A stretch of DNA of 64,000 bases, from IMG/VR virus record IMGVR_UViG_3300047476_001402, positions 1-64,000 of that record, one strand, 5' to 3'. Source of the stretch: a virus. Position 1 is the stretch's first letter. Every line of letters starts with the position of its first letter. Under the pieces are notes generated by a model. It was not told where the DNA came from, made no database searches, and saw only the letters and a list, made by a program, of their open reading frames with translations. Below, one piece after another: positions 19,302 to 42,403 of this stretch. Position numbers and translations under genes: made by a program.

Positions 19302-20990
19302 ATGTTCGACAATAAACAAACAGTGCTATTTAAATCTCCAGTTAAGAAAACTACTTCAGCCGTGCAGAAAACTAAGGCTGTTCCAATTTTTGTTCAAGCT
19401 GCACAGAAAAAGACCGTGGAAACACGTTCTGGAAATGGTGCATTGAAATTGAGTTCTACTCTTGATTCTTTCGTGGATCAGTTCGGAAAGCTTGGAACCT
19501 ATAAGGCTCCCCGTTCTTTCTCTGAAATCGAAAAAGATTGTGAACTTCTTTGGGGAAATGACCCTCTTACATCTGTGAAGTTTACTCATTATCTTCGCAC
19601 CATCACCCGAAAGGTGAATGTGTTGGGAACGACTACTGATGAACCTCAAAAAGGTGGTGAGTTGAAGTTTGAACCAATTATGCGAATGATTTGGCTCTCT
19701 CAGAAGGCACCAGAAGTATTCTGGAAAAATATCGGATTGTTTATTTCCCTTGGAAGTTGGCACGATATTTTCACCATGCTTCAATATGATCTTGTCTATA
19801 ATGGATGGGATAATCGTAAGCTGGATTGGAAGAAATTCGGAGATTTAATTCTCACTGCATTGAACAATGATCACACTAATAATCTTGTGAAGAAATATCT
19901 TCCACAGATTAAAGCTCGTTCCGACTGCAAAACAGTTGAATCACAGGCTAATTGTCTAATTGCAAAGTGGATTTGTTCTCTTCTCTTCGGACCAAAGGAT
20001 AATTCCTATAATTATAAACAATACCGCAAGCTAAAAACTTCTGGTAATGCACACGATTGGCAAAAGCTTATCTCCCAGCGCAAATTTGATGCAATTGAGT
20101 TTGATAAGATTCATGGACGGGCACTGAACCTTTTGGTTCGTAGCAAATTCCTGAAGAATCAGAATCTTTCTGACAAGTATGCAAAATGGGTAGGTGATCC
20201 AAAAACAACTGTGAAGTATACTGGTTTTGTTCATGAACTCTTTAGTAATCTTCCTTATAGTCTTTCCGGCTTGGAAAAACATACACAGGATACTATCAAT
20301 AAGCAATTTGCTACATTGGTGGAAAAAGGAAAGAGTGAAAAGAAAGAGAATCAGTGTAATTTCATAGTAGTACGCGATACCTCATCTTCGATGAATTCTA
20401 CTGCTGTTGGAACGACTCAAAGTTGTGCTAATATCGGAAAAGCATTGGCATTATATTTCAGCGAGTTCTTAACTGGACGATTTGCAGATAGCTTTATCGA
20501 ATTTAATTCAACTGCAAAAATGCATAGATGGGTAGGTAATAATGCCTTAGAAAAATGGTACAATGATCAATGTGGATTCTATGGTAGCACCAATTTCCAA
20601 AGCGTTATTGATCTCTTCGTTCATTTGAAAAATCAAGGAATTGATGAATCTGAGTTCCCTACTGGTATTCTTTGTATCAGCGACAGCGAGTTTAACCCTA
20701 CACAATTGAGTAATACCAATGTGGAGGAAGCTCGTAGAAAGCTTCGCACTGTGTTTAGTAAGGAATTCGCAGATAAATTCCAAATTGTTCTCTGGAATCT
20801 CCAGAATAACTTTTATGGAAAAGGTTCAGGTGAGAAGTTTGAAACTACTGCGAATGATAGAGGCTGTTACTATTTCAGCGGATATTCCGCAAGTGTAATT
20901 AGTTTCATTACAGGGCATGAAGTGATGACTGCTCGACAGTTATTCGATACCGCAATGGATCAACAGGTTCTCAATATGGTTACTCTGTAA
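19302..20990 (+). CDS. TROVE/Ro60-like protein with C-terminal vWA domain (DUF2828-like); start moved to MFDNK
   Basis: T..GNGA..LSST, GSWHDIF, KKYLP, YRKL; vWA MIDAS motifs RDTSSSM, STNF, ISDSEFN, IVLWNL, SGYS. Confidence 0.8.
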   Translation: MFDNKQTVLFKSPVKKTTSAVQKTKAVPIFVQAAQKKTVETRSGNGALKLSSTLDSFVDQFGKLGTYKAPRSFSEIEKDCELLWGNDPLTSVKFTHYLRTITRKVNVLGTTTDEPQKGGELKFEPIMRMIWLSQKAPEVFWKNIGLFISLGSWHDIFTMLQYDLVYNGWDNRKLDWKKFGDLILTALNNDHTNNLVKKYLPQIKARSDCKTVESQANCLIAKWICSLLFGPKDNSYNYKQYRKLKTSGNAHDWQKLISQRKFDAIEFDKIHGRALNLLVRSKFLKNQNLSDKYAKWVGDPKTTVKYTGFVHELFSNLPYSLSGLEKHTQDTINKQFATLVEKGKSEKKENQCNFIVVRDTSSSMNSTAVGTTQSCANIGKALALYFSEFLTGRFADSFIEFNSTAKMHRWVGNNALEKWYNDQCGFYGSTNFQSVIDLFVHLKNQGIDESEFPTGILCISDSEFNPTQLSNTNVEEARRKLRTVFSKEFADKFQIVLWNLQNNFYGKGSGEKFETTANDRGCYYFSGYSASVISFITGHEVMTARQLFDTAMDQQVLNMVTL

Positions 20991-20997
20991 AATTATT

Positions 20998-21027
20998 AAA
21001 ACCCGCTAAGAAATTAGCGGGTTTTTT
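20998..21027 (+). terminator. intrinsic terminator
   Basis: AAAACCCGCTAA-GAAA-TTAGCGGGTTTTTT. Confidence 0.85.
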
Positions 21028-21654: not shown

Positions 21655-22085
21655 AAGTATCATTTGACGGTCTTAGAAAAAATATTGCAGAAGATTTCAA
21701 TTCATTAATTAGTGAATTCCGTTATCAAAATAACCGACTCCCAGAAAATAGTTATATCAACATCAGGGATGAAATCGCAAATTTAAGGAAGTCTCTAGGG
21801 TGTCTAATGGCGTGTTATGACACTAGGGATATGCCAGAAGATTTTAACGACTTGAGTGAAGAAATTGAACTATTAGAACTATGAAAATTTTACGAATTAA
21901 GCTTCAGGACGATACATTTGTTATTAAAAATTTCCAAGACATTCCTAGTAATCTAGGAGATATTACAGCCGAAACACAGATTAGAGATTTTATGCGTGAT
22001 ATGGTTCGAAATGGTGGATGGTGGCCTTCTAACAGTGTATGGATTCCATATCATGAAGTTAAATCAGCCAATTTCACAAATGTAA

Positions 22086-22313
22086 ATACCTAAAGAACAT
22101 GCTGGTGATAACGAGCTAGATAGTAATAATAAAGAAATTTACGATGGTGACATTGTTGAATACTATTCCCAAGTTACTCACGAAATGAGTAGAGGAATAA
22201 TCATGTTTTCTCGATATTTCACGGGATGGTCAATAGATGACTGTGAAAAATTAATTGATTCTTATCCTCTAAAAGTTGTCGGTAACATTTTCGAAACTCC
22301 TCTTGACTCTTGA
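22086..22313 (+). pseudogene. YopX-family C-terminal fragment with no ATG start
   Basis: Manual translation LDSNNKEIYDGDIVE...VVGNIFETP; in-frame stop at 22083, next codon ATA. Confidence 0.6.
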
Positions 22314-22635
22314 GAAAATAGTAGTAAGGTTTAGAACAATATAAAACATATGGACGATGAAATTATCAGTGTAGCGGTCGATGCGGCAAGCGGCAGCGGA
22401 AATAGCCCCGGATTTGGTGGATTTTTACTTGTAATGCTGGCAGTCATATCCCTACCTATTTTCCTCATTACTAAATGTGTGGGAGAAGCGCCAGAGGCTA
22501 AACTCATTCGAGTTATCAGTTCCCCTATAACAGATAAAAATCCTGATGAATCGTTTTCCCATTTTATGGGTCGAAAAACAAAGGATACTATTATAGACTT
22601 TGGTAAGGGTGTTATTGGAAAATAACAAAAATAAC

Positions 22636-22664
22636 TTGCACAGATGATGAAGAAGTGGTAATGT
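22636..22664 (+). promoter_or_regulatory. promoter of ncRNA array 1
   Basis: TTGCAC-17 nt-TAATGT with TG, ending 11 nt before unit 1. Confidence 0.6.
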
Positions 22665-22675
22665 ACAGGACAATA

Positions 22676-22737
22676 AGATTACTAACAGCAACCTTAACAA
22701 CAATGATCTTTTAAATCAACACGTTAAATGTAATCTG
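22676..22737 (+). ncRNA. CAGCA-stem RNA unit 1
   Basis: AGATTAC-t-AACAGCAA ... GTAATCT-G; internal hairpin TGAT-CTTTTAA-ATCA. Confidence 0.75.
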
Positions 22738-22742
22738 CTAAA

Positions 22743-22856
22743 GAATGTCACACAGCAACAAATAAAAACTTTTTTCTATTCAAAAAACCCATCCAAGTTC
22801 GACTCTTGGAAGCGTTAACCGGCTGATTGGTAGAGGGCGAAACGGTAAGACATTCG
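22743..22856 (+). ncRNA. CAGCA-stem RNA unit 2 (T arm then D-loop-like)
   Basis: GAATGTC-a-CACAGCAA ... GACATTC-G; T arm TCCAAG-TTCGACT-CTTGGA, later TTGGTAGA. Confidence 0.8.
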
Positions 22857-22862
22857 AATATA

Positions 22863-22962
22863 AGAGTATTAACAGCAAAATTATAATATTTTCGCCAAAC
22901 ATTGAAACGAAGTGGTTCGACTCCGCCCGTAATAGCTGACGGTTCAGCGCAAACATACTCTG
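22863..22962 (+). ncRNA. CAGCA-stem RNA unit 3 (permuted tRNA elbow)
   Basis: AGAGTAT-t-AACAGCAA ... ATACTCT-G; GTGG-TTCGACT-CCGC followed by TAGCTGACGGTTCAGCG. Confidence 0.8.
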
Positions 22963-22966
22963 AAAA

Positions 22967-23089
22967 AGAATATCAACAGCATTATAAAATATATGAGCCC
23001 AATTCTAGGTCGGAGGTTCAAATCCTTCAATTCCCGCAAGGGATTTAGCTCAGGGGTAGAGCAAGAATAATATTAAAAATGATATTCTG
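22967..23089 (+). ncRNA. CAGCA-stem RNA unit 4 (complete circularly permuted tRNA, YrlA-like)
   Basis: AGAATATC-AACAGCAT ... GATATTCT-G; ATTCT, AGGTC, T arm, acceptor stem closed by GCAA, D arm TAGCTCAGGGGTAGAGCA, AGAAT. Confidence 0.85.
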
Positions 23090-23485
23090 AAATTTTACAA
23101 AAATATGGGATCACTTTTAGGAAAAATAGCAGAAGAACATAGAGACTTCGAAGAATGGTGTGAGAACAGACAATACCCATTTCCTTCTAGAGAGTTTTGG
23201 AAGCATCAGCCTTATTATGATGAGTATAAACTTCCCGAAAAATTGAAGGATGAGGAAAACCAAAAATCAAGGAAATCGTATAACGAAAAGCGTCGTAATG
23301 ATGAAGGTGATAAAATCGGTTTACTTAATGATAGATTTTTAGGAACTCCTGAAGTGGATTATACATGTGGGTGCGGACACCCTAAAGCGCGATATCTTCC
23401 CGGATTTGTTTTGACAAGTGAATACGGTTGTGCTAAATGTGGAAATGTAGTCGGAGGAGAATATTAAAAATGATATTCTGAAATT
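23069..23485 (+). repeat. 26-bp perfect direct repeat (23069-23094 and 23460-23485)
   Basis: AATATTAAAAATGATATTCTGAAATT occurs twice, flanking ORF 23105-23467. Confidence 0.85.
23105..23467 (+). CDS. hypothetical protein with C-terminal zinc ribbon
   Basis: CGCG...CAKCG; enclosed by the 26-bp repeat. Confidence 0.7.
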   Translation: MGSLLGKIAEEHRDFEEWCENRQYPFPSREFWKHQPYYDEYKLPEKLKDEENQKSRKSYNEKRRNDEGDKIGLLNDRFLGTPEVDYTCGCGHPKARYLPGFVLTSEYGCAKCGNVVGGEY

Positions 23486-23735
23486 ATTAAAAGAAAATAA
23501 TATGCAACTTAAAGAACTTTTGGCAGAAATTATGTCTGAATTAGACCAACCAATGGGAAATATTGATCTTAATAAGATACAATCTAAGATGTACCTTGTG
23601 GCAGGTCTATTGACCGACGACGATACAAAAGTTCCTGTTGAAGTATTTGACCTCTTTCCCGAGGAGTATAAGAAATCAGCTATAATATTGTATATGAAAA
23701 TGATTGCACAGACACTTGCTGAAGGATAATTAAAA

Positions 23736-23902
23736 GCCCTTGTATTCTACAAACGTAGCCATTACGTGAAATGTATTATGCATAATATATTAAAAATGGA
23801 CAACTCTTAAAGGCCGAAACAGAAATACTAGTAGTATGTTAGGATAAAGGAGTTGTATATGACGAGGATGGTAAGCTAGCTCGGACCTAGCCAAGGGCAC
23901 CA
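23736..23902 (+). ncRNA. 167-nt expanded tRNA-like RNA
   Basis: Acceptor stem GCCCTTG/CAAGGGC plus ACCA; T-like arm GCTAG-CTCGGAC-CTAGC; long internal hairpins. Confidence 0.75.
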
Positions 23903-24566
23903 ATTTTAAAAATAATGAAACCAAAGATTATAGGATATGAAAAAGATGGTAAATTCTATGGAATTGCCACACATCTAGGAGGAGTTTATGTTAGTAGAGC
24001 AGATATTAATATCTATTATGTTAATGATAAGCAACTTTTAAAAGATTTCGAATCGGCAAAACTTTTGGTTCAAGGTAAGGTGTACAGAGAAGGAATGTCA
24101 TTGAAATTGAATAAAGAGGAATTAGAATCGTTTGGGCGGGGTAGACTTTTTATTTCAACTGTAAGAAATGCAAAAGAATTTAAGATAGCGGAGAAATATC
24201 CATCAGATAGCACAAGAACAGTTGCATTAAGAGCACAATTTAAATTGACAACCGAACAAGGAGTGATATAGTCGAGTATGACAATAACAACAAAACTAAA
24301 TATTGGCGATACATTTTGGATTCCTTTTAATCTCAATGGTGAAATTGTCGCCCTCGATTTAAAGGTTAAAAAGATTGGAATCACCGATGAAGGAATTTTT
24401 TATTTAGGAGATGCAGGATCATTCCCCTATCCTGAAAGGGCGATCTTCAAAACTGAGCAAGGCGCACTGAAAACTTGTTTCGAAGAGTGGAAAGAAAAAA
24501 AGAAATCTAACTACTACTGTATTTAAAAAAAAACAATGAATAGTAAGTAGTGTAAAGTTAGATATA

Positions 24567-24624
24567 GAGAGATAAACAGCAATTAAAAAAACTTTTTATT
24601 GGAAAAAAACAAAAACGTCTCTCG
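24567..24624 (+). ncRNA. CAGCA-stem RNA unit 5
   Basis: GAGAGAT-a-AACAGCAA ... GTCTCTC-G; internal TTTTT-ATTGGAA-AAAAA. Confidence 0.75.
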
Positions 24625-24628
24625 GATA

Positions 24629-24753
24629 AGGTTCACATCAGCAAAATAATACAAGACTCTTATTGTTATAAAGCAAGCCGATCTGGTGCAATCCCGGTAA
24701 TTGTGTAAGGCATCTACAAGCTCTAGTGGGCAGGAAAAAGATCCATGAACCTG
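24629..24753 (+). ncRNA. CAGCA-stem RNA unit 6
   Basis: AGGTTCA-c-ATCAGCAA ... TGAACCT-G; T-loop-like CTGG-TGCAATC-CCGG, later GCTCTAGTGGG. Confidence 0.75.
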
Positions 24754-24756
24754 AAA

Positions 24757-24827
24757 AAGTCTTTGTCAGCATCTTAAACTCTTCTTTCAAAAACATCGAA
24801 ATGTCCAGAAGGCATTTCAAAGACTTG
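24757..24827 (+). ncRNA. CAGCA-stem RNA unit 7
   Basis: AAGTCTTTG-TCAGCAT ... CAAAGACTT-G; CTTTCAA loop and GAAATGTC/GGCATTTC hairpin. Confidence 0.75.
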
Positions 24828-24831
24828 GATA

Positions 24832-24975
24832 AAATCATCAACAGCATATAAACTTCTATGTAAATAATTATCCTAACGGGTGTCCTCGTTCAAGTCGGGG
24901 GTGTGGAGCATATAGAGATAAAAATTCCACATTGGCGGAATGGTAGACGCGATTAAGAAAAAAGATGATGATTTG
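24832..24975 (+). ncRNA. CAGCA-stem RNA unit 8 (circularly permuted class II, Leu-like tRNA)
   Basis: AAATCATC-AACAGCAT ... GATGATTT-G; V arm ATCC-TAAC-GGGT, T arm CCTCG-TTCAAGT-CGGGG, acceptor GTGTGGA/TCCACAT, D arm TGGCGGAATGGTAGACGC. Confidence 0.85.
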
Positions 24976-24979
24976 AATA

Positions 24980-25163
24980 AAAATTCTAACAGCAATAAAT
25001 TATATCACATAACGGCTCTAAGGTACTACAGTCGGGAAACCGATGCCGGGACGGTCTAATAAATGCTCGCTAAGTCGAAAGATATGCGAGAAAGACGGGA
25101 CAAAGGAGGAAAAGCTTAATGCTCCCTTATCTGTCAGCCATACACAATATAAATAGAATTTTG
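24980..25163 (+). ncRNA. CAGCA-stem RNA unit 9 (large multi-hairpin payload)
   Basis: AAAATTCT-AACAGCAA ... AGAATTTT-G; GAAA-capped hairpins TCGG-GAAA-CCGA and CTCGC..GAAA..GCGAG. Confidence 0.7.
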
Positions 25164-25203
25164 ACCATAGTAACATTGTCCTTGTTGCTAGCGGTTTTTG
25201 GCC

Positions 25204-25238
25204 AAAAACCCGTAAGATTAACATCTTACGGGTTTTTT
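25204..25238 (+). terminator. intrinsic terminator closing array 2
   Basis: AAAAACCCGTAAGAT-TAAC-ATCTTACGGGTTTTTT. Confidence 0.85.
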
Positions 25239-25355: not shown

Positions 25356-27695
25356 ATGAGTAACCTAAACATGGATATAACGATAAAAAAACGCAACGGA
25401 CAGATAGAAAAATTTGATGCAGAGAAGGTAAATAAGGTTGTAGAATGGGCTACTAAAAATGTTTCGGGAATATCGGCTAATGATATTCTTATGAATGCCA
25501 ATATAAACTTCTATGATGGTATAAGTTCGAAAGAAATACATGATTCATTGATTAAATCCGCAGAAGATTTGATTTCAATTGACCATCCTAACTATACAAC
25601 CGTAACAGCCCGACTACTCACATATGGATTGCGAAAAGAAGTATGGGGTGGTAATAGACCACCTCGATTAATTGATCATATTAAAAATTGTGTATCTATA
25701 GGAGTTTATACAGATGAACTTCTTACAAAATATACAGAAGATGAAATTAATAAAATAGATAAGTGGATTGACCATTCCTTAGACGAAACTATGTTTGATT
25801 TTGCTGGTATGAACCACATGCTCAAAACAGCACTTGTCCAAGATCGTGTAAATAAAAAAGTTTATGAAACACCACAGTTCGCATTTATGTGTATTGGTAT
25901 GGTCCATTTTGCAGATTATGAATCTGCAAGGAAATTACAATTCGTAAAAGAATTTTATGAAGCTGTTTCTCATAGAAAATTAAATATTCCTACTCCAATG
26001 CTTACTCGCTGGAGAACAAATGCAAAATCGGGTGCATCTTGTTGTTTGATCCAAGTAGATGATACCTCCGATTCTATATTTTCTTCTGCACATTTAATGG
26101 CAAATGCAACAAGTTACGGATATGGTATCGGATTAGATTTTAGCCGTATTCGTGGTATGGGGAGTCCTGTTAAGAACGGAGAAACAGTGCATAGCGGGGT
26201 TATACCGTACCTAAAGGTATTCCAAGACTCCATTAAGTCTCAACAGCAAGGAGGGGCACGTAGAGGGGCAGGAACGGCAACTGCACCAATCTTTCATTGG
26301 GAAATCGAAAGCATTCTTCAACTGAAGAATGTAGGAGGTACTGAATATAACAGAGTTCGTCACTTGGATTATTGTATTGCAATATCTAAATTATTCTACG
26401 AACGTTGGACCAATGATGAAAATATTACATTATTTTCATATCACGAAGTTCCTGAAGTTTTTGATTCATTTGGAATGCCAGAATTTGATGATCTATATAT
26501 TAAGGCCGAAAATAATCCAAATCTCAAATTTAAAAAGAGTGTTCCTGCAAATGAATTATTTGATTCTCTTATCAAAGAAAGAATTGAAACAAATAGAATT
26601 TATATTTTAAATATAGACCTTGCTAATGAATTTTCTCCTTGGATGGATAGAGTATCTATGACAAACCTTTGTGTTGAAGTTTTGCATCCTACTATTCCGT
26701 GTCAATATCTTAATGATCCTAATGGGGAGATTGGAACCTGTCTATTAGCAGCGACTAACATGGTTAATATAAAATCCGACGAAGATCATCGAAAGGTTTG
26801 CCATTTAGCAGTTAGGATGTTGGATGACATGATCGAACGTCAAATTTATTTTGCTCCTGCTGCTGAGAGATTTACAAAGAATAAACGGTCATTAGGAATT
26901 GGTATTACAAACCTTGCTGGATGGCTTGCAACTAAAGGATTAAACCACGATTCTCCAGAATCTCCGAATGTAATTGATGAGTTCATGGAAAAACAGCAAT
27001 ATTATCTTATGGAAGCATCTTGGATGCTTGCAAAGGAGAAAGGGAAAGCACCTGATTGGAATCGTAGTAAATACGCCCATGGTTATTCTAAATTAGACTT
27101 ATATAAGAAGGATATTGATGAAGTGGTCACTAGAAAACCTACATTAGATTGGAAAACTCTTATGGAAAATATCTGGAAAGACGGTATGCGTAATATGACT
27201 CTTTCTTGTGCAATGCCTTGTGAGAAATCATCTCTTATGCAAAATTCTACAAATGGTATGGAACCTATTATTCAATTGTTTCAATTTAAAGATGATAGAC
27301 AAGGATCTGCCGCATGGATTGCTCCTGGTGCTAAGAAATATGGGAAATATTACAAATCAGCATACGATTGTTCTAATGAGAATATTATTAAATGCGTTGC
27401 CGCAGTGATGAAATGGCTATGTATGAGTGCTTCTGGGAATCATTATTATAACTATGGTAACTATGAGGATAATAAACTTGAATCTACGGATGTTGCATAT
27501 GATATTCTTCTATCTTATAAATACGGATGGAAAACATTGTATTATGCTAAAAACAAACAGGTTGTGAATAAAGACACCACTCTAGATGAAAACCCCAAGT
27601 TCAACGTAACTAAATATGATCCTAATACTAAAGATGTTCGAGAAGAAGCGCCCAATTGGGATTTAGGATGTGCTGGGGGTGCATGTTCTCTTTAA
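25356..27695 (+). CDS. nrdA: class Ia ribonucleotide reductase alpha subunit
   Basis: N-terminal ATP cone (KRNG..EKFD), YETPQ, SCCL, TNLCVE and C-terminal CAGGACSL. Confidence 0.97.
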   Translation: MSNLNMDITIKKRNGQIEKFDAEKVNKVVEWATKNVSGISANDILMNANINFYDGISSKEIHDSLIKSAEDLISIDHPNYTTVTARLLTYGLRKEVWGGNRPPRLIDHIKNCVSIGVYTDELLTKYTEDEINKIDKWIDHSLDETMFDFAGMNHMLKTALVQDRVNKKVYETPQFAFMCIGMVHFADYESARKLQFVKEFYEAVSHRKLNIPTPMLTRWRTNAKSGASCCLIQVDDTSDSIFSSAHLMANATSYGYGIGLDFSRIRGMGSPVKNGETVHSGVIPYLKVFQDSIKSQQQGGARRGAGTATAPIFHWEIESILQLKNVGGTEYNRVRHLDYCIAISKLFYERWTNDENITLFSYHEVPEVFDSFGMPEFDDLYIKAENNPNLKFKKSVPANELFDSLIKERIETNRIYILNIDLANEFSPWMDRVSMTNLCVEVLHPTIPCQYLNDPNGEIGTCLLAATNMVNIKSDEDHRKVCHLAVRMLDDMIERQIYFAPAAERFTKNKRSLGIGITNLAGWLATKGLNHDSPESPNVIDEFMEKQQYYLMEASWMLAKEKGKAPDWNRSKYAHGYSKLDLYKKDIDEVVTRKPTLDWKTLMENIWKDGMRNMTLSCAMPCEKSSLMQNSTNGMEPIIQLFQFKDDRQGSAAWIAPGAKKYGKYYKSAYDCSNENIIKCVAAVMKWLCMSASGNHYYNYGNYEDNKLESTDVAYDILLSYKYGWKTLYYAKNKQVVNKDTTLDENPKFNVTKYDPNTKDVREEAPNWDLGCAGGACSL

Positions 27696-39563: not shown

Positions 39564-40349
39564 ATGGTATTATCGCCTATGAAAGTCGTCGTTATTGGAG
39601 ATAATTATATAGGAACCGCATTTTCTTCTTATGAAGTACTGGATCATCATGATTTGGTTCTTTGTGATAGTTTTAGAGAGCGTTTTTCGGACGTTGATAT
39701 TTTTATATATGCAGTAGATAATAAAGTTAATAGAATAGAAATTAACAGCAAAGATAATTTTCTTTTGTTGTATAGATTTACAGAATTCTGTAAAAAATTT
39801 GGAAAAAAATTAGTTCTAATATCTACTGCCGATTTGTATGGAAATAATTGGGATTGGGAGCATCAAACCACTGAAGATTCTACGGCGTTAGACATGAACA
39901 CAGACTATCGCTTATCTAAGAGAGTAGCTGAGAGAATGATGAGACCTCATGATATTATCATAAGAATTAAAAATCCTTTCGATTGTAGATTACACGATGA
40001 AAATACATTACTCAAAATATACAAAAAAACCGATCTTTGTAATTGGCAAGATTCATTTACATATCTTCCCGACTTAACTAAAAGTGTTGAGTATCTATTG
40101 AATAATAATATGTCTGGTATATACAATGTAGCACAATTCGAATGCGCATCTATGGTATACATTTCTAATCTATTACAAATGTCCCACAGTGATACAAATA
40201 CTGGAGACATACTCGATTTGGTTAACGTCTGTGCAGATGTGAACTGTTCAAAAATCAAACAGTTTGTAGATCTAACATCTTTAGATGCTGCACTGTCGGT
40301 ATCTTGGCAAAAACTGCTTGCTAAAATGACATTACGTGCTAATATGTAA
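39564..40349 (+). CDS. degenerate NAD-dependent epimerase / rhamnose reductase-like SDR
   Basis: VVIG..YIG, ISTA.LY, YRLSK (YxxxK), GIYNV. Confidence 0.65.
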   Translation: MVLSPMKVVVIGDNYIGTAFSSYEVLDHHDLVLCDSFRERFSDVDIFIYAVDNKVNRIEINSKDNFLLLYRFTEFCKKFGKKLVLISTADLYGNNWDWEHQTTEDSTALDMNTDYRLSKRVAERMMRPHDIIIRIKNPFDCRLHDENTLLKIYKKTDLCNWQDSFTYLPDLTKSVEYLLNNNMSGIYNVAQFECASMVYISNLLQMSHSDTNTGDILDLVNVCADVNCSKIKQFVDLTSLDAALSVSWQKLLAKMTLRANM

Positions 40350-40718
40350 CATGGAAGAACAATACACCTCTGATATGATTGAGCCTTATTACGACGATTT
40401 TTATAAAAATCCGTTTCGAAGAACATATGAGAATTTAATATTTCGAATACTTGTCAAAATTGATCTGTATATACAGTATTATACAAGCGATGGCTATTTC
40501 CAGAGATTCGTAGAAAAACTAATCATCAAAAGAGAAGCCAGTCTACACAAACAAAGAAAAATCCAAGAGATAAGAAATACTGTACATTCCTATAGAACAG
40601 CATTTCAGAGATTCAACACTCCTAGCCGACCTACTTGTTTTGATCAAACTCCTGCGGGAGATCTTATCAGGGCTCGTATCAATTGCAAAACAAATAGGGA
40701 TATCGTAATAAAGAACTG

Positions 40719-41069
40719 ATGACTAAATATAAATTTATATACATTGCTGGCCCGATGACAGGATATGAGAGTTTCAATTATCCTGCATTTGAAAAAATGG
40801 AAAAACAATTGATTGATGCATTTTGGTGTAAGCCAGACAATATTCTGAATCCAATAAGAATTGCGGACGGTGATACGACAAAGCCCTATAGTTTTTACAT
40901 TCGCGAATCTATCAAGATGATTGAGAATGCAACAGATGTAGTGTTTCTCGACGGATGGGAGAAAAGTAAAGGCGCTGTATTAGAATACCATATTGCAAAG
41001 ACTATGGGTCTTAATATGCTTGATCAGAACCTTTATCCACTACCAGAAAACTTAACATTTACAATTTAA
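40719..41069 (+). CDS. DUF4406 / nucleoside deoxyribosyltransferase-like protein
   Basis: IYIAGPMTG...FN.PAF, LNP, LDGWEKSKGA.LE. Confidence 0.8.
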   Translation: MTKYKFIYIAGPMTGYESFNYPAFEKMEKQLIDAFWCKPDNILNPIRIADGDTTKPYSFYIRESIKMIENATDVVFLDGWEKSKGAVLEYHIAKTMGLNMLDQNLYPLPENLTFTI

Positions 41070-41078
41070 CAATTTAAT

Positions 41079-41489
41079 ATGTCTGATGTAAAACAAGTAA
41101 TTGTAATTCGTGCTGATTTGAATATGCGAAAAGGCAAAATCGCATCTCAAGCAGCACATGCATCCATGGGTATATTTTTTAAAGCATTGATCCCATCACA
41201 TACCTTCCACCGAGAAGAAAAATATATAGATCATTGGGAATTGCCCAATGACAAGTATTTTGAAGATTTTATTAATGGACGATTCAAGAAAATCGTGGTT
41301 TATGTGAATTCTGAAGAAGAACTTCTTGCTATTCATAAACAAGCATTCGACAAACAAATTCATTGTAGTCTTATTAAGGATGCAGGTCTTACTGAATTCG
41401 GCGGAATTCCTACATATACTGCTGTTGGAATTGGTCCTTGGGACTCGAAAGAAATTGACGAAATTACTGGACATCTCAAACTTCTATAG
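41079..41489 (+). CDS. pth2: peptidyl-tRNA hydrolase, Pth2 type
   Basis: KQVIV.R.DL.M.KGK.A.Q.AHA, DAG.TE, T.VGIGP, ID.ITGHLKLL. Confidence 0.93.
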   Translation: MSDVKQVIVIRADLNMRKGKIASQAAHASMGIFFKALIPSHTFHREEKYIDHWELPNDKYFEDFINGRFKKIVVYVNSEEELLAIHKQAFDKQIHCSLIKDAGLTEFGGIPTYTAVGIGPWDSKEIDEITGHLKLL

Positions 41490-41500
41490 TAGGGTCTAAC

Positions 41501-42403
41501 ATGGTTTATAAAACACGCATTGCTCCATCACCCACAGGATTTATTCATCTCGGAAATATCCGAACAGCATATCATAATTGGCTTGCTGCTCGTTCCACTG
41601 GCGGAAAATTCATTCTCCGTATTGACGACACTGATAAAGAGCGTAATAAAGAAGAATATGTGGATAAAATTTTCGAGACATTTGAATGGCTTGGTTTGGA
41701 TTTTGATGAAACATTTCGTCAGAGCGAAACAGAGGCCAACCATTTAGCTATTGCACAGCAACTAGTACATGATGGTCTAGCAGAGATGATTGAAGGCGGA
41801 GCTATCCGTTTGACTAACATTCCTCATATTCCTGATTTTTGGAACGATGTTGTTGCAGGAGAGATCAAAGTATCTGATAAAGATCGGGAGGTTCTGAATA
41901 ATATTATCATCGTTCGTAGTAACGGCTCCCCTACATACAACTTCTCTAGTATTTTAGACGATATGTTTTCAGATGTTAATTTAATCATTCGTGGAACGGA
42001 TCATATTTCTAATACTATTAAGCAATTAGTAATCCTTCATGCAGTTGCGAATCTTAAAAATAATCAACGTGCCTGTGAATTTGCTCGTAAATCTTTGGAC
42101 AATACTAAATTTGCCCATGTTGGGTTAGTTTTCGAAAAAGGGAAGAAACTTTCGAAGCGTGACGGATCAAGCAATTTTGATATCCATAGAGAAAGTGGCT
42201 CACATCCTGATGCAATCCTAAATTGGATTCTTCGACTCGGATGGAGTCCGTCTGATGCAAATTTTGATAAAAATCATCCAATCATCACTAAAGATCATGC
42301 AAAGGAGATCTTTTGGAGTGCTGGTGCATTGAGAAATTCTTCTGCATCATTAGATTTACAAAAATTAGCATACTATAACAAGAAATATAAAAACCTAAAA
42401 TAA
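41501..42403 (+). CDS. glutamyl-tRNA synthetase catalytic core only (GluQ-RS-like)
   Basis: R.APSPTG..HLGN, LRIDDTD, IRG.DH..N, KLSKR; 300 aa, no anticodon-binding domain. Confidence 0.85.
   Translation: MVYKTRIAPSPTGFIHLGNIRTAYHNWLAARSTGGKFILRIDDTDKERNKEEYVDKIFETFEWLGLDFDETFRQSETEANHLAIAQQLVHDGLAEMIEGGAIRLTNIPHIPDFWNDVVAGEIKVSDKDREVLNNIIIVRSNGSPTYNFSSILDDMFSDVNLIIRGTDHISNTIKQLVILHAVANLKNNQRACEFARKSLDNTKFAHVGLVFEKGKKLSKRDGSSNFDIHRESGSHPDAILNWILRLGWSPSDANFDKNHPIITKDHAKEIFWSAGALRNSSASLDLQKLAYYNKKYKNLK

What the first reader, a model, noticed from the sequence alone, without database searches (positions are those of the whole stretch)
22967..23089. Unit 4 is a circularly permuted tRNA with its acceptor stem sealed by a GCAA tetraloop
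Seen in order: anticodon-stem 3' strand ATTCT, variable loop AGGTC, T arm GGAGG-TTCAAAT-CCTTC, acceptor AATTCCC-GCAA-GGGATT, D arm TAGCTCAGGGGTAGAGCA, then AGAAT. The CAGCA handle replaces the anticodon loop. It has no free CCA end or anticodon but keeps the D/T elbow. Established: T-before-D order is the architecture of YrlA Y RNAs. Units 2, 3 and 6 show reduced versions of the same order.
Basis: partly seen in the sequence, partly recalled or inferred. Interest (0 to 1): 0.8.

Follow-up and report, generated by a model that had tools for sequence, protein, structure and literature searches.

The report
Phage tRNA-shaped Y-like RNA unit
This stretch of a lake phage encodes a small RNA that is a whole tRNA written inside-out, sealed at its acceptor end and clamped by a conserved "handle"; it is one of nine handle-bearing RNAs lying after a gene for a Ro60-like protein, and probably belongs to a kind of Y-RNA particle not yet described in print.

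Summary
The order is closing stem, ACAGCA, anticodon-stem 3' strand, variable loop, T arm, sealed acceptor hairpin, U8-A9, D arm, anticodon-stem 5' strand, closing stem. Re-permuted in silico, ARAGORN calls it a tRNA; in native order it does not. Rfam YrlA matches at 35.6 bits, below its gathering score of 69.

A covariance model built only from 42 RNAs of other phage contigs finds the unit at 100.5 bits, E 4.5e-20. It also finds 8 of the 9 units in the window. Across those 42 relatives, 95.6% of cells pair, against about 40% with slid partners, and 28 of 29 pairs show double changes.

The RNAs follow a DUF2828/DUF7788 gene. Its C-terminal half matches Ro60 by profile (hhalign 97%). Its N-terminal half does not match significantly.

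The handle (AAG-stem-ACAGCAA ... stem-CUGA) differs from the GNCGAA/CGAA handle of YrlA. It resembles Dictyostelium Class I RNAs.

Verdict: a real, conserved tRNA mimic and a new variant of the Y-RNA kind. No expression or binding data exist. This scan noted the same family before on other DNA.

The parts
19302..20990 (+). Gene for a 562-aa DUF2828/DUF7788 protein (P0001), the presumed protein partner. Its C-terminal part is a vWA domain with an invariant D-x-S-x-S.
   Evidence: ORF. Pfam DUF7788 at 4.2e-12 and phrog_850 'RNA-binding protein' at 1.3e-32. 64 of 80 family members hit DUF2828 and 18 of 80 weakly hit vWA_Ro60. hhalign against 8 TROVE proteins gives 97% over the C-terminal half.
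20998..21025 (.). Terminator-like hairpin just after the protein gene.
   Evidence: 12 pairs, listed on both strands.
22674..22739 (+). Unit 1: short handle-only RNA (AAG, stem GATTAC/GTAATC, UAACAGCAA, CUG).
   Evidence: R2 gives 27.7 bits, E 0.0011. Rfam Dicty_Class_I gives 24 bits, E 0.1.
22741..22858 (+). Unit 2: handle plus a T-arm hairpin (CCAAG-TTCGACT-CTTGG) and a D-like segment.
   Evidence: R2 gives 26.2 bits, E 0.0024. BLAST match to L004 8334-8465.
22861..22964 (+). Unit 3: handle plus a T-arm-like hairpin and a second hairpin.
   Evidence: R2 gives 29.3 bits, E 0.00047.
22965..23091 (+). Unit 4, the finding: the complete handle-clamped permuted tRNA mimic.
   Evidence: R2 (leave-one-out) 100.5 bits, E 4.5e-20. 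R1 110.5 bits. Rfam YrlA 35.6 bits. ARAGORN calls a tRNA after re-permutation.
22967..22975 (+). Closing stem, 5' strand (AGAATATCA). It pairs with 23080-23088.
   Evidence: In 42 relatives all 9 closing-stem pairs show changes on both sides.
22976..22981 (+). ACAGCA handle motif, directly after the closing stem.
   Evidence: Across 111 distinct model hits the frequencies are A.95 C.95 A.96 G.98 C1.0 A.99 A.92.
23002..23011 (+). Anticodon-like stem 3' strand ATTCT, then variable loop AGGTC.
   Evidence: G-T-C of the variable loop is invariant in the 9-sequence seed alignment.
23012..23028 (+). T arm GGAGG-TTCAAAT-CCTTC.
   Evidence: In 111 distinct hits the five positions G-U-U-C and the later A are conserved at 0.97-1.00.
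23029..23045 (+). Acceptor-like stem AATTCC/GGGATT, sealed by the loop CGCAA. There is no free 5' or 3' end and no CCA.
   Evidence: All 6 pairs covary in relatives.
23046..23063 (+). U8-A9, D arm GCTC-AGGGGTA-GAGC, then A26.
   Evidence: The U at position 8 is present in 100% of hits.
23064..23068 (+). Anticodon-like stem 5' strand AGAAT. It pairs with 23002-23006.
   Evidence: All 5 pairs covary.
23080..23089 (+). Closing stem 3' strand TGATATTCT, then the conserved G (the ...CUG end).
   Evidence: U.94 and G.96 at the end of the unit.
24565..24626 (+). Unit 5: short handle-only RNA, first unit of the second block.
   Evidence: R2 gives 27.0 bits, E 0.0016.
24627..24756 (+). Unit 6: closing stem AGGTTCA/TGAACCT with CAUCAGCAA. 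The cargo is unclear.
   Evidence: Neither R1 nor R2 found it at E<=1.
24755..24829 (+). Unit 7: short unit with GUCAGCA.
   Evidence: R2 gives 21.6 bits, E 0.025.
24830..24977 (+). Unit 8: a second permuted tRNA mimic of another type. It has a long variable region, T arm CCTCG-TTCAAGT-CGGGG, an 8-bp sealed acceptor-like hairpin and a class-II-like D arm.
   Evidence: z -2.1. R2 gives 56.8 bits, E 3e-10.
24978..25165 (+). Unit 9: long unit with the handle AAAAUUCU-AACAGCAA.
   Evidence: R2 gives 26.2 bits, E 0.0024.
25205..25238 (+). Inverted repeat with a T run, closing the second block. Probably a terminator.
   Evidence: Seen by eye. The consensus scan did not list it.

Best explanation
Unit 4 is the gene for a small structured RNA of about 125 nt. 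It belongs to a widespread phage RNA family.

What it is. The RNA has a shared handle and a cargo.
- The handle is 5' (U)AAG, a 6-9-bp terminal stem, unpaired ACAGCA(A), an A-rich 3' side of the internal loop, and a ...CUGA end.
- The cargo here is a complete tRNA body in permuted order. It has an L-shaped D/T elbow and a sealed acceptor stem. It has no anticodon loop and no CCA end.

How it most likely works (inferred).
- Two polycistronic transcripts carry the nine units (22674-23091 and 24565-25165). They are cut in the 0-6-nt spacers at the ...CUGA|UAAG... junctions.
- The DUF2828/DUF7788 protein encoded 2 kb upstream binds the handle. It has a Ro60-like C-terminal half, including the vWA domain.
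- The particle uses the tRNA-shaped cargo to engage a host factor that recognises the tRNA elbow or acceptor-T minihelix. Candidates are tRNA modification or processing enzymes, an exoribonuclease such as PNPase, or a tRNA-directed defence factor.
- In this way it would work like Ro60 with its YrlA Y RNA.

Shown: the sequence, the conservation, the covarying structure, the strand and position linkage to the gene, and the tRNA-likeness.
Inferred: transcription, processing, protein binding and the host target.
For: Structure
- All arms are present.
- ARAGORN calls a tRNA only after re-permutation.
- In the 9-sequence seed alignment the residues that make tRNA tertiary contacts are invariant. These are U8, A14, G15, G18, A21, G46-U47-C48, G53-U54-U55-C56 and A58; the numbering is from general tRNA knowledge.

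Family
- Model R1 found 127 matches at E<=0.01 in 71 of 83 sources (934 kb, both strands). All 127 lie on the strand of the DUF2828 gene. 62 of the 83 sources have a match longer than 105 nt.
- On the 42 best non-window matches, 95.6% of cells pair. Shuffled controls give 61.5% and slid controls 39.5-44.3%. 28 of 29 pairs show changes on both sides. The covariation score is 0.852, against 0.07-0.15 when slid.
- Leave-one-out model R2 scores unit 4 at 100.5 bits and recovers 8 of the 9 window units. The only other matches up to E 1 are three at E 0.68-0.9.

Linkage to the gene
- With a pattern finder, 58 of 80 related loci have at least one unit within 3 kb downstream of the gene, and 46 of 80 have at least two. 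The 0-499-nt bin, which also holds any unit overlapping the gene, has 142 units; the next bin has 47.
- In L004 eight units start 100 nt after the stop codon. In Leptolyngbya phage Lbo-JY46 four units follow directly, and in Mycobacterium phage Bromden three do.

Protein
- hhalign of 80 family members against 8 TROVE proteins gives probability 97%, E 1.2e-10, over profile columns 294-528 against 280-504.
- 18 of 80 members weakly hit Pfam vWA_Ro60.
- The PHROG label is 'RNA-binding protein'.

Not a recent tRNA copy
- The best local match of either half to any of the record's 18 tRNAs scores 9-11, where 29 and 33 are possible.

Precedent
- Chen et al. 2014 (PMC4201824, passages).
- Thermus phage phiLo Ro60 binds Yrl RNAs and host PNPase (PMC12135203, abstract and passages).
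Against: - There are no expression data. No RNA run holds the stretch.
- There is no binding evidence of any kind.
- The N-terminal, RNA-binding half of the protein shows no significant similarity to TROVE. hhalign on the N-terminal halves gives probability 0.7%, E 0.086. Pfam TROVE gave no match in the protein scans, and none in a six-frame search of the 90-kb record. PDB sequence and profile searches found no Ro60.
- The structure predictor was closed, so I did not test a Ro60-like ring.
- vWA domains in general also match: 23 of 80 members hit VWA_2.
- In this window the array is not adjacent to the gene. It starts 1,684 nt after the stop codon (unit 4 itself starts 1,975 nt after it), with small ORFs between, and the second block lies 3.6 kb away.
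- The covariation counts were made on alignments fitted to the model's structure. The seeds were chosen by my own structural pattern search, and both choices lean towards the structure.
- 12 of 83 sources gave no model match.
- Promoters were seen by eye only. The consensus scan found no more than shuffles do: 19 against 18.2.
Confidence: 0.7

Rival explanations
1. It is simply a divergent YrlA. On this view DUF2828 is an ordinary Ro60 orthologue that Pfam's TROVE model misses, and the RNA is an orthologue of RF02553. Nothing new would be involved beyond sequence drift.
For: - The full-length YrlA alignment scores 35.6 bits.
- R1 also hits RNAs next to canonical TROVE genes of Bacteroidota. 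L156 gives 60.4 bits, L159 gives 48 and 50.9, and L161-L163 give about 50 over the tRNA-like part.
- The C-terminal half of the protein matches Ro60.
- Depositors label phage relatives 'RNA-binding protein'.
Against: - The score is about half of the gathering score.
- The handle differs. The family has unpaired ACAGCAA after a stem of variable sequence. YrlA and Yrl have GNCGAA(N0-1)G or CGAA. The Bacteroidota Ro60 loci I read have GYCGUAGA...UACUUCG.
- Rfam YrlA gave no match at E<=0.1 in the Bromden, Lbo-JY46 or L004 loci, where R1 or the unit finder finds units.
- The N-terminal halves are not significantly alike.
Confidence: 0.2
2. It is a permuted tRNA gene whose transcript is cut and rejoined into a working tRNA. 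Permuted tRNA genes of the red alga Cyanidioschyzon merolae behave this way; I recall that case and did not read it here.
For: - The order is 3' half, linker, 5' half.
- ARAGORN accepts the re-permuted form.
Against: - The native sequence holds no anticodon loop. ARAGORN passes only when 7 arbitrary flanking bases are inserted.
- In the nine relatives, the bases after the 5' strand of the anticodon-like stem fit a C/U-U-N-N-N-R-A loop in only 2 of 9, by eye.
- The same handle closes 45 of 127 model matches that are 80 nt or shorter and carry no tRNA body.
- There is no CCA and no discriminator context at the sealed end.
- The record already has 18 ordinary tRNA genes.
Confidence: 0.03
3. It is a dead remnant: a slice across two tandem copies of one tRNA gene, with no function.
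For: The layout of T arm, acceptor 3' strand, spacer, acceptor 5' strand and D arm is what such a slice would give. Chen et al. warn that tRNA dimers can score as YrlA.
Against: - The unit is conserved in 62 of 83 sources, with compensatory changes in all five helices.
- It is not close to any resident tRNA.
- It is framed by the conserved handle.
- ARAGORN finds no tRNA gene in the region.
Confidence: 0.02
4. It acts without the DUF2828 protein. On this view it is a free decoy or sponge for a host tRNA-binding factor, such as a tRNA-cleaving defence nuclease, a modification enzyme or RNase P. Alternatively it is a processing or stability element for the neighbouring small ORFs.
For: - The tRNA shape has sealed ends, which would resist exonucleases.
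- In this window the arrays flank small ORFs (23105-24526), and a 26-nt copy of the unit's 3' end recurs at 23460-23485.
- Chen et al. report that several tRNA enzymes act on YrlA.
Against: - The strand and position linkage to the DUF2828 gene across loci is not explained.
- Anticodon nucleases need an anticodon loop, which is absent.
- The handle is the most conserved part and is also present on cargo-less units.
Confidence: 0.1

Closest known systems
YrlA, the tRNA-like Y RNA bound by bacterial Ro60/Rsr (Rfam RF02553; Chen et al. 2014, PMC4201824, abstract and passages read)
   Same: - A terminal stem closes a large internal loop.
- The order is T arm, acceptor-like stem-loop, D arm.
- tRNA tertiary-contact residues are kept.
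- It is encoded within 4 kb of the gene for a protein with a vWA domain of the Ro60 kind.
- Several Y RNAs are often present per locus.
- The Rfam model aligns end to end, and my model cross-hits RNAs beside canonical TROVE genes.
   Different: - The score is 35.6 bits against a gathering score of 69.
- There is no GNCGAA(N0-1)G motif. Instead there is an unpaired ACAGCA(A) after a stem of free sequence, a 5' AAG and a 3' CUGA.
- The partner gene is Pfam DUF2828/DUF7788, not TROVE.
- There are nine units in two arrays, most of them with reduced or no tRNA cargo.
Thermus phage phiLo Ro60 with Yrl1/Yrl2 (PMC12135203; PDB 9KOP, 9L5Y; abstract and passages read)
   Same: A phage-encoded Ro60-type protein has small stem-bulge-stem partner RNAs encoded beside its gene. 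The proposed role is to capture a host RNA enzyme (PNPase).
   Different: - The phiLo RNAs carry the CGAA motif and lie upstream of the gene.
- The passages I read describe no tRNA-like domain for them.
- The profile of the present family found no PDB Ro60 chain at E<=10.
Class I RNAs of dictyostelid social amoebae (Rfam RF01414; Kjellin et al. 2021, PMC7919456, sections 10, 14, 15 and passages read)
   Same: - The frame is the same: start AAG, a short terminal stem whose first G pairs with the C of a 3' CUG(U), a conserved motif ending in ACAGCAA right after the 5' strand, an A-rich 3' side, and many copies.
- The Rfam model hits the short units at up to 39.7 bits against a gathering score of 41.5. 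It hits 23 of 30 phage records and 0 of 14 control genomes.
- 43 of the 44 hits lie on the gene's strand, and 39 of 44 lie within 5 kb of the gene.
   Different: - No hit reaches the gathering score.
- Unit 4 itself is twice as long and carries a tRNA body, which Class I RNAs lack.
- Class I RNAs are separate genes in a eukaryote, each with the upstream promoter element DUSE.
- Their shown binder is an RRM protein, Rnp1A/CIBP.
- Homology as opposed to convergence is not settled.
Circularly permuted tRNA genes of Cyanidioschyzon merolae
   Same: The gene order is 3' half, linker, 5' half.
   Different: Those genes yield working tRNAs with an anticodon and CCA after processing. This unit has no anticodon loop and a sealed acceptor end.

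Membership tests
YrlA (Rfam RF02553) | Score at or above Rfam's gathering score of 69 bits | tested here: not met
   35.6 bits at 22986-23091, model positions 1-114. Nothing in the window reached gathering.
YrlA (Rfam RF02553) | T arm, then acceptor-like stem-loop, then D arm, inside a terminal stem with a large internal loop | tested here: met
.
YrlA (Rfam RF02553) | GNCGAA(N0-1)G motif in the Ro60-binding module (Chen et al. 2014, figure legend read); CGAA in phiLo Yrl | tested here: not met
   There is no CGAA in 22965-23091. The conserved motif is ACAGCA(A).
YrlA (Rfam RF02553) | Encoded within 4 kb of a Ro60 (TROVE-domain) gene | tested here: inconclusive
   A gene lies 1,975 nt upstream, but it is DUF2828/DUF7788. 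Pfam TROVE did not match it, and a six-frame search of the 90-kb record found none. The C-terminal half matches TROVE proteins at 97%. The N-terminal half gives E 0.086.
YrlA (Rfam RF02553) | Bound by Ro60 and modified by tRNA enzymes (pseudouridine 55, dihydrouridine) | not testable with these tools
   This needs immunoprecipitation and modification mapping.
Handle RNA family beside DUF2828 genes (defined here by models R1 and R2) | 5' AAG, terminal stem, ACAGCA(A), A-rich 3' loop side, stem, CUGA, on the strand of a DUF2828 gene | tested here: met
   Leave-one-out model R2 gives 100.5 bits, E 4.5e-20. All 127 R1 matches lie on the gene's strand.
Dictyostelid Class I RNA (Rfam RF01414) | Gathering score of 41.5 bits; 42-65 nt; AAG start, 6-bp stem, 11-nt motif, CUGU end | tested here: not met
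   Unit 4 is 125 nt and is not hit. Unit 1 scores 24 bits. The best phage unit scores 39.7 bits. The frame features are shared, but the threshold is not reached.
Functional (permuted) tRNA gene | A 7-nt anticodon loop, and free acceptor ends with a CCA or discriminator context after processing | tested here: not met
   ARAGORN finds nothing in the native order. It calls a tRNA only when a 7-nt loop is supplied. The acceptor is sealed by a 5-nt loop.
Ro60/TROVE protein family (for the partner gene) | HEAT-repeat ring (Pfam TROVE) followed by a vWA domain with a MIDAS motif | tested here: inconclusive
   The vWA domain with invariant D359, S361 and S363 is present. The vWA half is similar to Ro60. 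The ring half is not detected by sequence.

The most novel reading that the evidence does not exclude
The handle (AAG, terminal stem, ACAGCAA, CUG) may be the recognition element of DUF2828 proteins wherever they occur. The Class I RNAs of Dictyostelium, so far reported as unique to dictyostelids and of unknown mechanism, would then be the same kind of RNA.

On this reading, a Ro60-like protein and handle-RNA particle would be shared by phages, bacteria and amoebae. Phages would load it with sealed tRNA look-alikes of several types.

Three results are compatible with this.
- The Rfam Class I model hits 23 of 30 phage records next to the gene, and 0 of 14 control genomes.
- All 4 EukProt proteins among the best 120 relatives of an amoebozoan DUF2828 protein come from Amoebozoa: Rhizamoeba, Dracoamoeba, Pellita and Endostelium. 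Contamination of those transcriptomes by prey bacteria is not excluded.
- One of the four proteins pulled down with a Class I RNA, DDB_G0281243, has no known function (bioRxiv 10.1101/2020.04.05.026054, passage read). I could not look at its sequence.
Probability: 0.2. Interest if true: 0.85.

Novelty: new variant of a known kind. Interest (0 to 1): 0.62.

Why it matters
Y RNAs and Ro60 are a conserved but poorly understood RNA-surveillance pair. This unit is a clean, complete example of a second, widespread version of that pair in phages.

- **Different protein family.** The partner is DUF2828/DUF7788, found in 185 deposited phage records. These include Listeria, Campylobacter, Enterococcus, Bacillus, Klebsiella and Mycobacterium phages.
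- **Different RNA handle.** The handle is ACAGCAA-based rather than CGAA-based.
- **Interchangeable tRNA-shaped cargo.** The window holds at least two unrelated tRNA mimics, units 4 and 8.

If the model is right, many large phages make sealed tRNA look-alikes in order to recruit or divert a host tRNA-recognising activity. That bears on how phages deal with host RNA decay and tRNA-directed defences.

The system can be tested in easy laboratory pairs such as Mycobacterium phage Bromden with M. smegmatis. The resemblance to Dictyostelium Class I RNAs also offers a concrete hypothesis for an RNA class whose mechanism has been unknown since it was first described.

Tried and rejected
- **Sequence routes to Ro60.** phmmer and a 24-sequence profile against PDB found no Ro60. 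Pfam TROVE gave no match in the protein scans, and none in a six-frame search of the 90-kb record.
- **N-terminal halves.** hhalign of the N-terminal halves alone gave probability 0.7%, E 0.086, collinear over 227 columns. I count this as inconclusive.
- **Expression.** No RNA holder was listed. The three runs that hold the stretch are freshwater DNA metagenomes and possible sources of the contig.
- **Nucleotide relatives among deposited phages.** blastn found no match.
- **Promoters.** The consensus scan found 19 sites against 18.2 in shuffles, which is uninformative. It also missed the hairpin at 25205-25238 that I saw by eye.
- **MAFFT alignment of the 9 seed units.** It misplaced the T-stem 3' strand and the acceptor in 4 of 9 rows. 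I therefore gave the structure by hand from the window row and re-aligned with the covariance model.
- **Origin from a resident tRNA.** None of the record's 18 tRNAs is close.
- **Dictyostelium partner.**
  - I found no way to search dictyostelid proteomes.
  - A search for longer DUF2828 relatives found none.
  - Avesson et al. 2011 is not held.
  - A paper search for DDB_G0281243 found only the preprint.
- **Rejected readings.** It is not CRISPR, because the units share a handle rather than a repeat, and the CRISPR-DR25 hit of 16.2 bits is noise. The tmRNA and other weak Rfam hits are also noise.
- **Whether the family is in print.** I searched for 'YrlA, phage, Ro60', 'DUF2828' (5 unrelated papers), 'DUF7788 / ACAGCAA / Ro-like RNA binding' (no relevant paper among the 15 listed of 1,001) and 'Ro60, Y RNA, Thermus, phage'. 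None of the listed papers describes an ACAGCAA handle or RNAs beside DUF2828 genes. They may already contain some of these phage RNAs.
Full report
**The observation**

I read 22000-24200 and located each element by script. In order it holds:
- closing-stem 5' strand AGAATATCA (22967-22975)
- ACAGCA (22976-22981)
- a 20-nt spacer
- ATTCT (23002-23006)
- AGGTC (23007-23011)
- T arm GGAGG-TTCAAAT-CCTTC (23012-23028)
- AATTCC, loop CGCAA, GGGATT (23029-23045)
- TA (23046-23047)
- D arm GCTC-AGGGGTA-GAGC (23048-23062)
- A (23063)
- AGAAT (23064-23068)
- eleven A-rich bases
- closing-stem 3' strand TGATATTCT (23080-23088), then G

The sealing loop can be read in two registers. The register AATTCC/GGGATT with a 5-nt loop leaves the canonical two bases (U8, A9) before the D stem. 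ARAGORN and both covariance models choose that second register.

**Is it tRNA-like, and is it more than chance?**

ARAGORN finds no tRNA here in the native order. I then joined the 5' half (23040-23068), seven native flanking bases as a stand-in loop, and the 3' half (23002-23035). ARAGORN called a 72-nt tRNA with both stand-in loops tried. The anticodon in that call is an artefact of the inserted bases.

Rfam's YrlA model aligns end to end to 22986-23091 at 35.6 bits, E 1e-5 in a 1.4-kb search. That is far below its gathering score of 69. The same model also gives sub-threshold matches (E<=1) in 13 of 14 control genomes. RNAfold gives z = -2.7.

My own strict search for permuted cloverleaves is not very selective. 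It gave 30 hits on the + strand, 10 on the - strand and 4 in shuffles over about 950 kb. The decisive evidence therefore had to come from relatives.

**Surroundings in the window**

Unit 4 is the last of four head-to-tail units (22674-23091). Five more lie at 24565-25165. Every unit has a terminal stem of its own sequence, CAGCA(A) within 1-3 nt of the 5' strand, and a 3' end in CUG or CG. Spacers between units are 0-6 nt.

Unit 8 (24830-24977) is a second permuted tRNA body of an unrelated type, with a long variable region and a class-II-like D arm. That label is from my recall.

The 562-aa gene at 19302-20990 lies 1,975 nt upstream of unit 4. It is Pfam DUF7788 and PHROG 850, 'RNA-binding protein'. 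The window belongs to a 90,383-nt IMG/VR record that CheckV rates as 34% complete. The record carries 18 ordinary tRNA genes, all on the other strand.

**Relatives**

The protein family is large. It has 1,834 hits among the 8,000 scored candidates. It has 1,559 representatives at E<=0.001. It occurs in 185 deposited phage records by tblastn, including Listeria, Campylobacter, Enterococcus, Bacillus, Sinorhizobium, Klebsiella and Mycobacterium phages and Leptolyngbya phage Lbo-JY46.

I fetched 80 IMG/VR loci around the gene.
- A pattern finder for the frame G-stem...C[AT]GCA...stem-CTG found 356 units on the gene's strand. It found 56 on the other strand and 7 in shuffles.
- With a slightly relaxed finder, 58 of 80 loci have a unit within 3 kb downstream of the gene, and 46 of 80 have two or more. 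The 0-499-nt bin, which also holds any unit overlapping the gene, has 142 units; the next bin has 47.
- In L004 eight units start 100 nt after the stop codon.

**Family model and covariation**

Nine loci, the window included, hold a unit with the same D arm type as unit 4 but with different stems. From these I built model R1, giving the structure by hand.

R1 found 127 matches at E<=0.01 in 71 of 83 sources, all 127 on the gene's strand. 78 of them are longer than 105 nt, and these lie in 62 of the 83 sources. 45 are 80 nt or shorter, and 12 sources had no match. Some loci are near-duplicates of one another, and the nine seeds match by construction.

On the 42 best matches from other contigs, 95.6% of cells form standard pairs. 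Shuffled controls give 61.5% and slid controls 39.5-44.3%. 28 of 29 pairs show changes on both sides, and the only pair that never varies is G53-C61. The covariation score is 0.852 against 0.07-0.15 when slid. The whole set of 127 gives 94.0%. These alignments are fitted to the model, which favours the structure, but the margin is very large.

Model R2 was built from those 42 sequences alone. It scores unit 4 at 100.5 bits, E 4.5e-20, over the whole window with filters off. It recovers eight of the nine units at E<=0.025. The only other matches are three at E 0.68-0.9.

The handle consensus over 111 distinct matches is U.60 A.97 A.94 G.77, stem, A.95 C.95 A.96 G.98 C1.0 A.99 A.92... A-rich, stem, U.94 G.96 A.58 U.58. 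The tRNA landmarks U8, A14, G18, G53-U54-U55-C56 and A58 stand at 0.96-1.00.

**The protein**

I could not fold it, because the predictor was closed. By sequence:
- The family has an invariant D-x-S-x-S, and T and D further on. This is a vWA MIDAS motif, a label from general knowledge.
- 23 of 80 members weakly hit Pfam VWA_2 and 18 of 80 hit vWA_Ro60. None hits TROVE.
- I took eight TROVE proteins from unnamed Bacteroidota genomes. Comparing the two profiles gave probability 97%, E 1.2e-10, over the C-terminal 215 columns. That span covers the vWA domain and about 55 columns before it.
- The N-terminal halves alone gave E 0.086, collinear but not significant.

So a Ro60-like C-terminal half is shown, and a Ro60-like RNA-binding ring is not. 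Earlier notes of this scan say the protein is predicted to fold like Ro60. I could not check that.

**Comparison with canonical Ro60 loci**

R1 also hits RNAs directly after canonical TROVE genes: L156 at 60.4 bits, L159 at 48 and 50.9, and L161-L163 at about 50 over the tRNA-like part. Reading those loci shows tandem units with a different handle, GYCGUAGA...UACUUCG, in L159 five in a row.

Chen et al. 2014 give GNCGAA(N0-1)G for YrlA. The phiLo paper gives CGAA, and single changes to that motif weaken binding three- to four-fold.

The family described here never shows that motif. The cargo architecture is therefore shared with YrlA, but the handle and the protein family differ. For this reason I file it as a new variant and not as a member of RF02553.

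In Mycobacterium phage Bromden, gp54 is DUF2828 plus DUF7788 by Pfam. It is followed by three ACAGCAA units, and the middle one is a permuted tRNA body. Rfam YrlA gave no match there at E<=0.1.

**The Class I resemblance**

Before looking at earlier notes, I saw Rfam's Dictyostelium Class I model hit unit 1 at 24 bits. I then saw it hit units in Lbo-JY46 (39.3 and 30.7 bits) and in L004 (34.5 bits).

I searched 30 whole phage records that carry the gene. 23 had a hit at E<=0.01, the best at 39.7 bits against a gathering score of 41.5. None of 14 control genomes had a hit. Of the 44 hits, 43 lie on the gene's strand, 39 lie within 5 kb of it and 38 are downstream.

Kjellin et al. 2021 describe Class I RNAs as follows:
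- 42-65 nt long
- start AAG
- a 6-bp terminal stem whose G pairs with the C of a 3' CUGU
- an 11-nt motif right after the 5' strand
- reported as unique to Dictyostelia

The frame of the phage handle is the same. Whether this is common descent or convergence is open.

One new piece bears on it. All four EukProt proteins among the best 120 relatives of an amoebozoan DUF2828 protein come from Amoebozoa: Rhizamoeba, Dracoamoeba, Pellita and Endostelium. The Rhizamoeba protein carries an added 2',5'-RNA-ligase-type domain. Contamination by prey bacteria is not excluded, and I could not search dictyostelid proteomes.

**Mechanism and rivals**

I take the unit to be a Y-RNA-like partner of the DUF2828 protein. 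The handle would be the protein's docking site. The sealed tRNA body would be a lure or adaptor for a host factor that reads the tRNA elbow. This is inferred by analogy with Ro60-YrlA and with phiLo Ro60-Yrl-PNPase.

- A working permuted tRNA is unlikely. There is no anticodon loop, and the handle also closes units without cargo.
- A dead tRNA remnant is contradicted by the covariation and by the lack of a close resident tRNA.
- A protein-independent decoy cannot be excluded, but it does not explain the linkage to the gene.

**Novelty**

I found no paper that describes the ACAGCAA handle or RNAs beside DUF2828 genes. The same scan has noted this family on other DNA: 35 notes for the handle and DUF2828 pairing, and 13 that also mention Class I RNAs. 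I treated those notes as leads only.

Unit 4 is a particularly clean, complete example of the family. I class it as a new variant of a known kind, of moderate to high interest. Its function remains untested.

Noticed in passing
window 23069-23094 and 23460-23485: The last 26 nt of unit 4 recur 391 nt downstream. This stretch covers the 3' side of the loop, the closing-stem 3' strand and GAAATT. The copy sits just after a 120-aa ORF (23105-23467) with CxC and CxxC cysteine pairs near its end and no Pfam or PHROG match. It looks like a duplication made when the ORF was inserted, or a second possible 3' closing strand.
   Followed up: partly
L159 2520-3270 and L156 560-770 (unnamed Bacteroidota genomes): Canonical TROVE/Ro60 genes are followed by tandem arrays of YrlA-like RNAs, five in a row in L159. 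Each starts with GYCGUAGA...UACUUCG and carries different T/D cargo. Arrays with a common handle and varied tRNA-like cargo are thus not peculiar to DUF2828 loci.
   Followed up: partly
proteins P0225, P0276, P0284, P0330: DUF2828/DUF7788 proteins occur in EukProt transcriptomes of four amoebozoans: Rhizamoeba saxonica, Dracoamoeba jomungandri, Pellita catalonica and Endostelium zonatum. The Rhizamoeba protein (843 aa) also carries Pfam PF13563, a 2',5'-RNA-ligase-type domain. These are either real amoebal genes or contamination from prey bacteria.
   Followed up: partly
L004 8039-8179 and L006 7177-7271: A close relative's array holds permuted tRNA bodies of other types. One has a D arm I recall as Glu-like and an 8-bp sealed acceptor stem. 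The cargo type therefore differs from unit to unit and from phage to phage.
   Followed up: partly
window, whole: AACAGCA occurs 21 times against 6.9 expected (0 of 100 shuffles reach 21). Only 6 of the 21 lie in the two arrays. Several others cluster on the + strand at 25826-26998 (inside the ribonucleotide reductase gene) and at 39744-41569. The covariance models found no unit there.
   Followed up: partly
window 23740-23912: A 185-nt gap between small ORFs has no ORF of its own on the + strand. It contains a third partial copy of ATATTAAAAATG (23787-23798). I did not examine it for structure.
   Followed up: no
G000 63450-81991 (window end and beyond): The record carries 18 tRNA genes by ARAGORN, all on the minus strand. 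That is opposite to the RNA arrays and the DUF2828 gene.
   Followed up: partly
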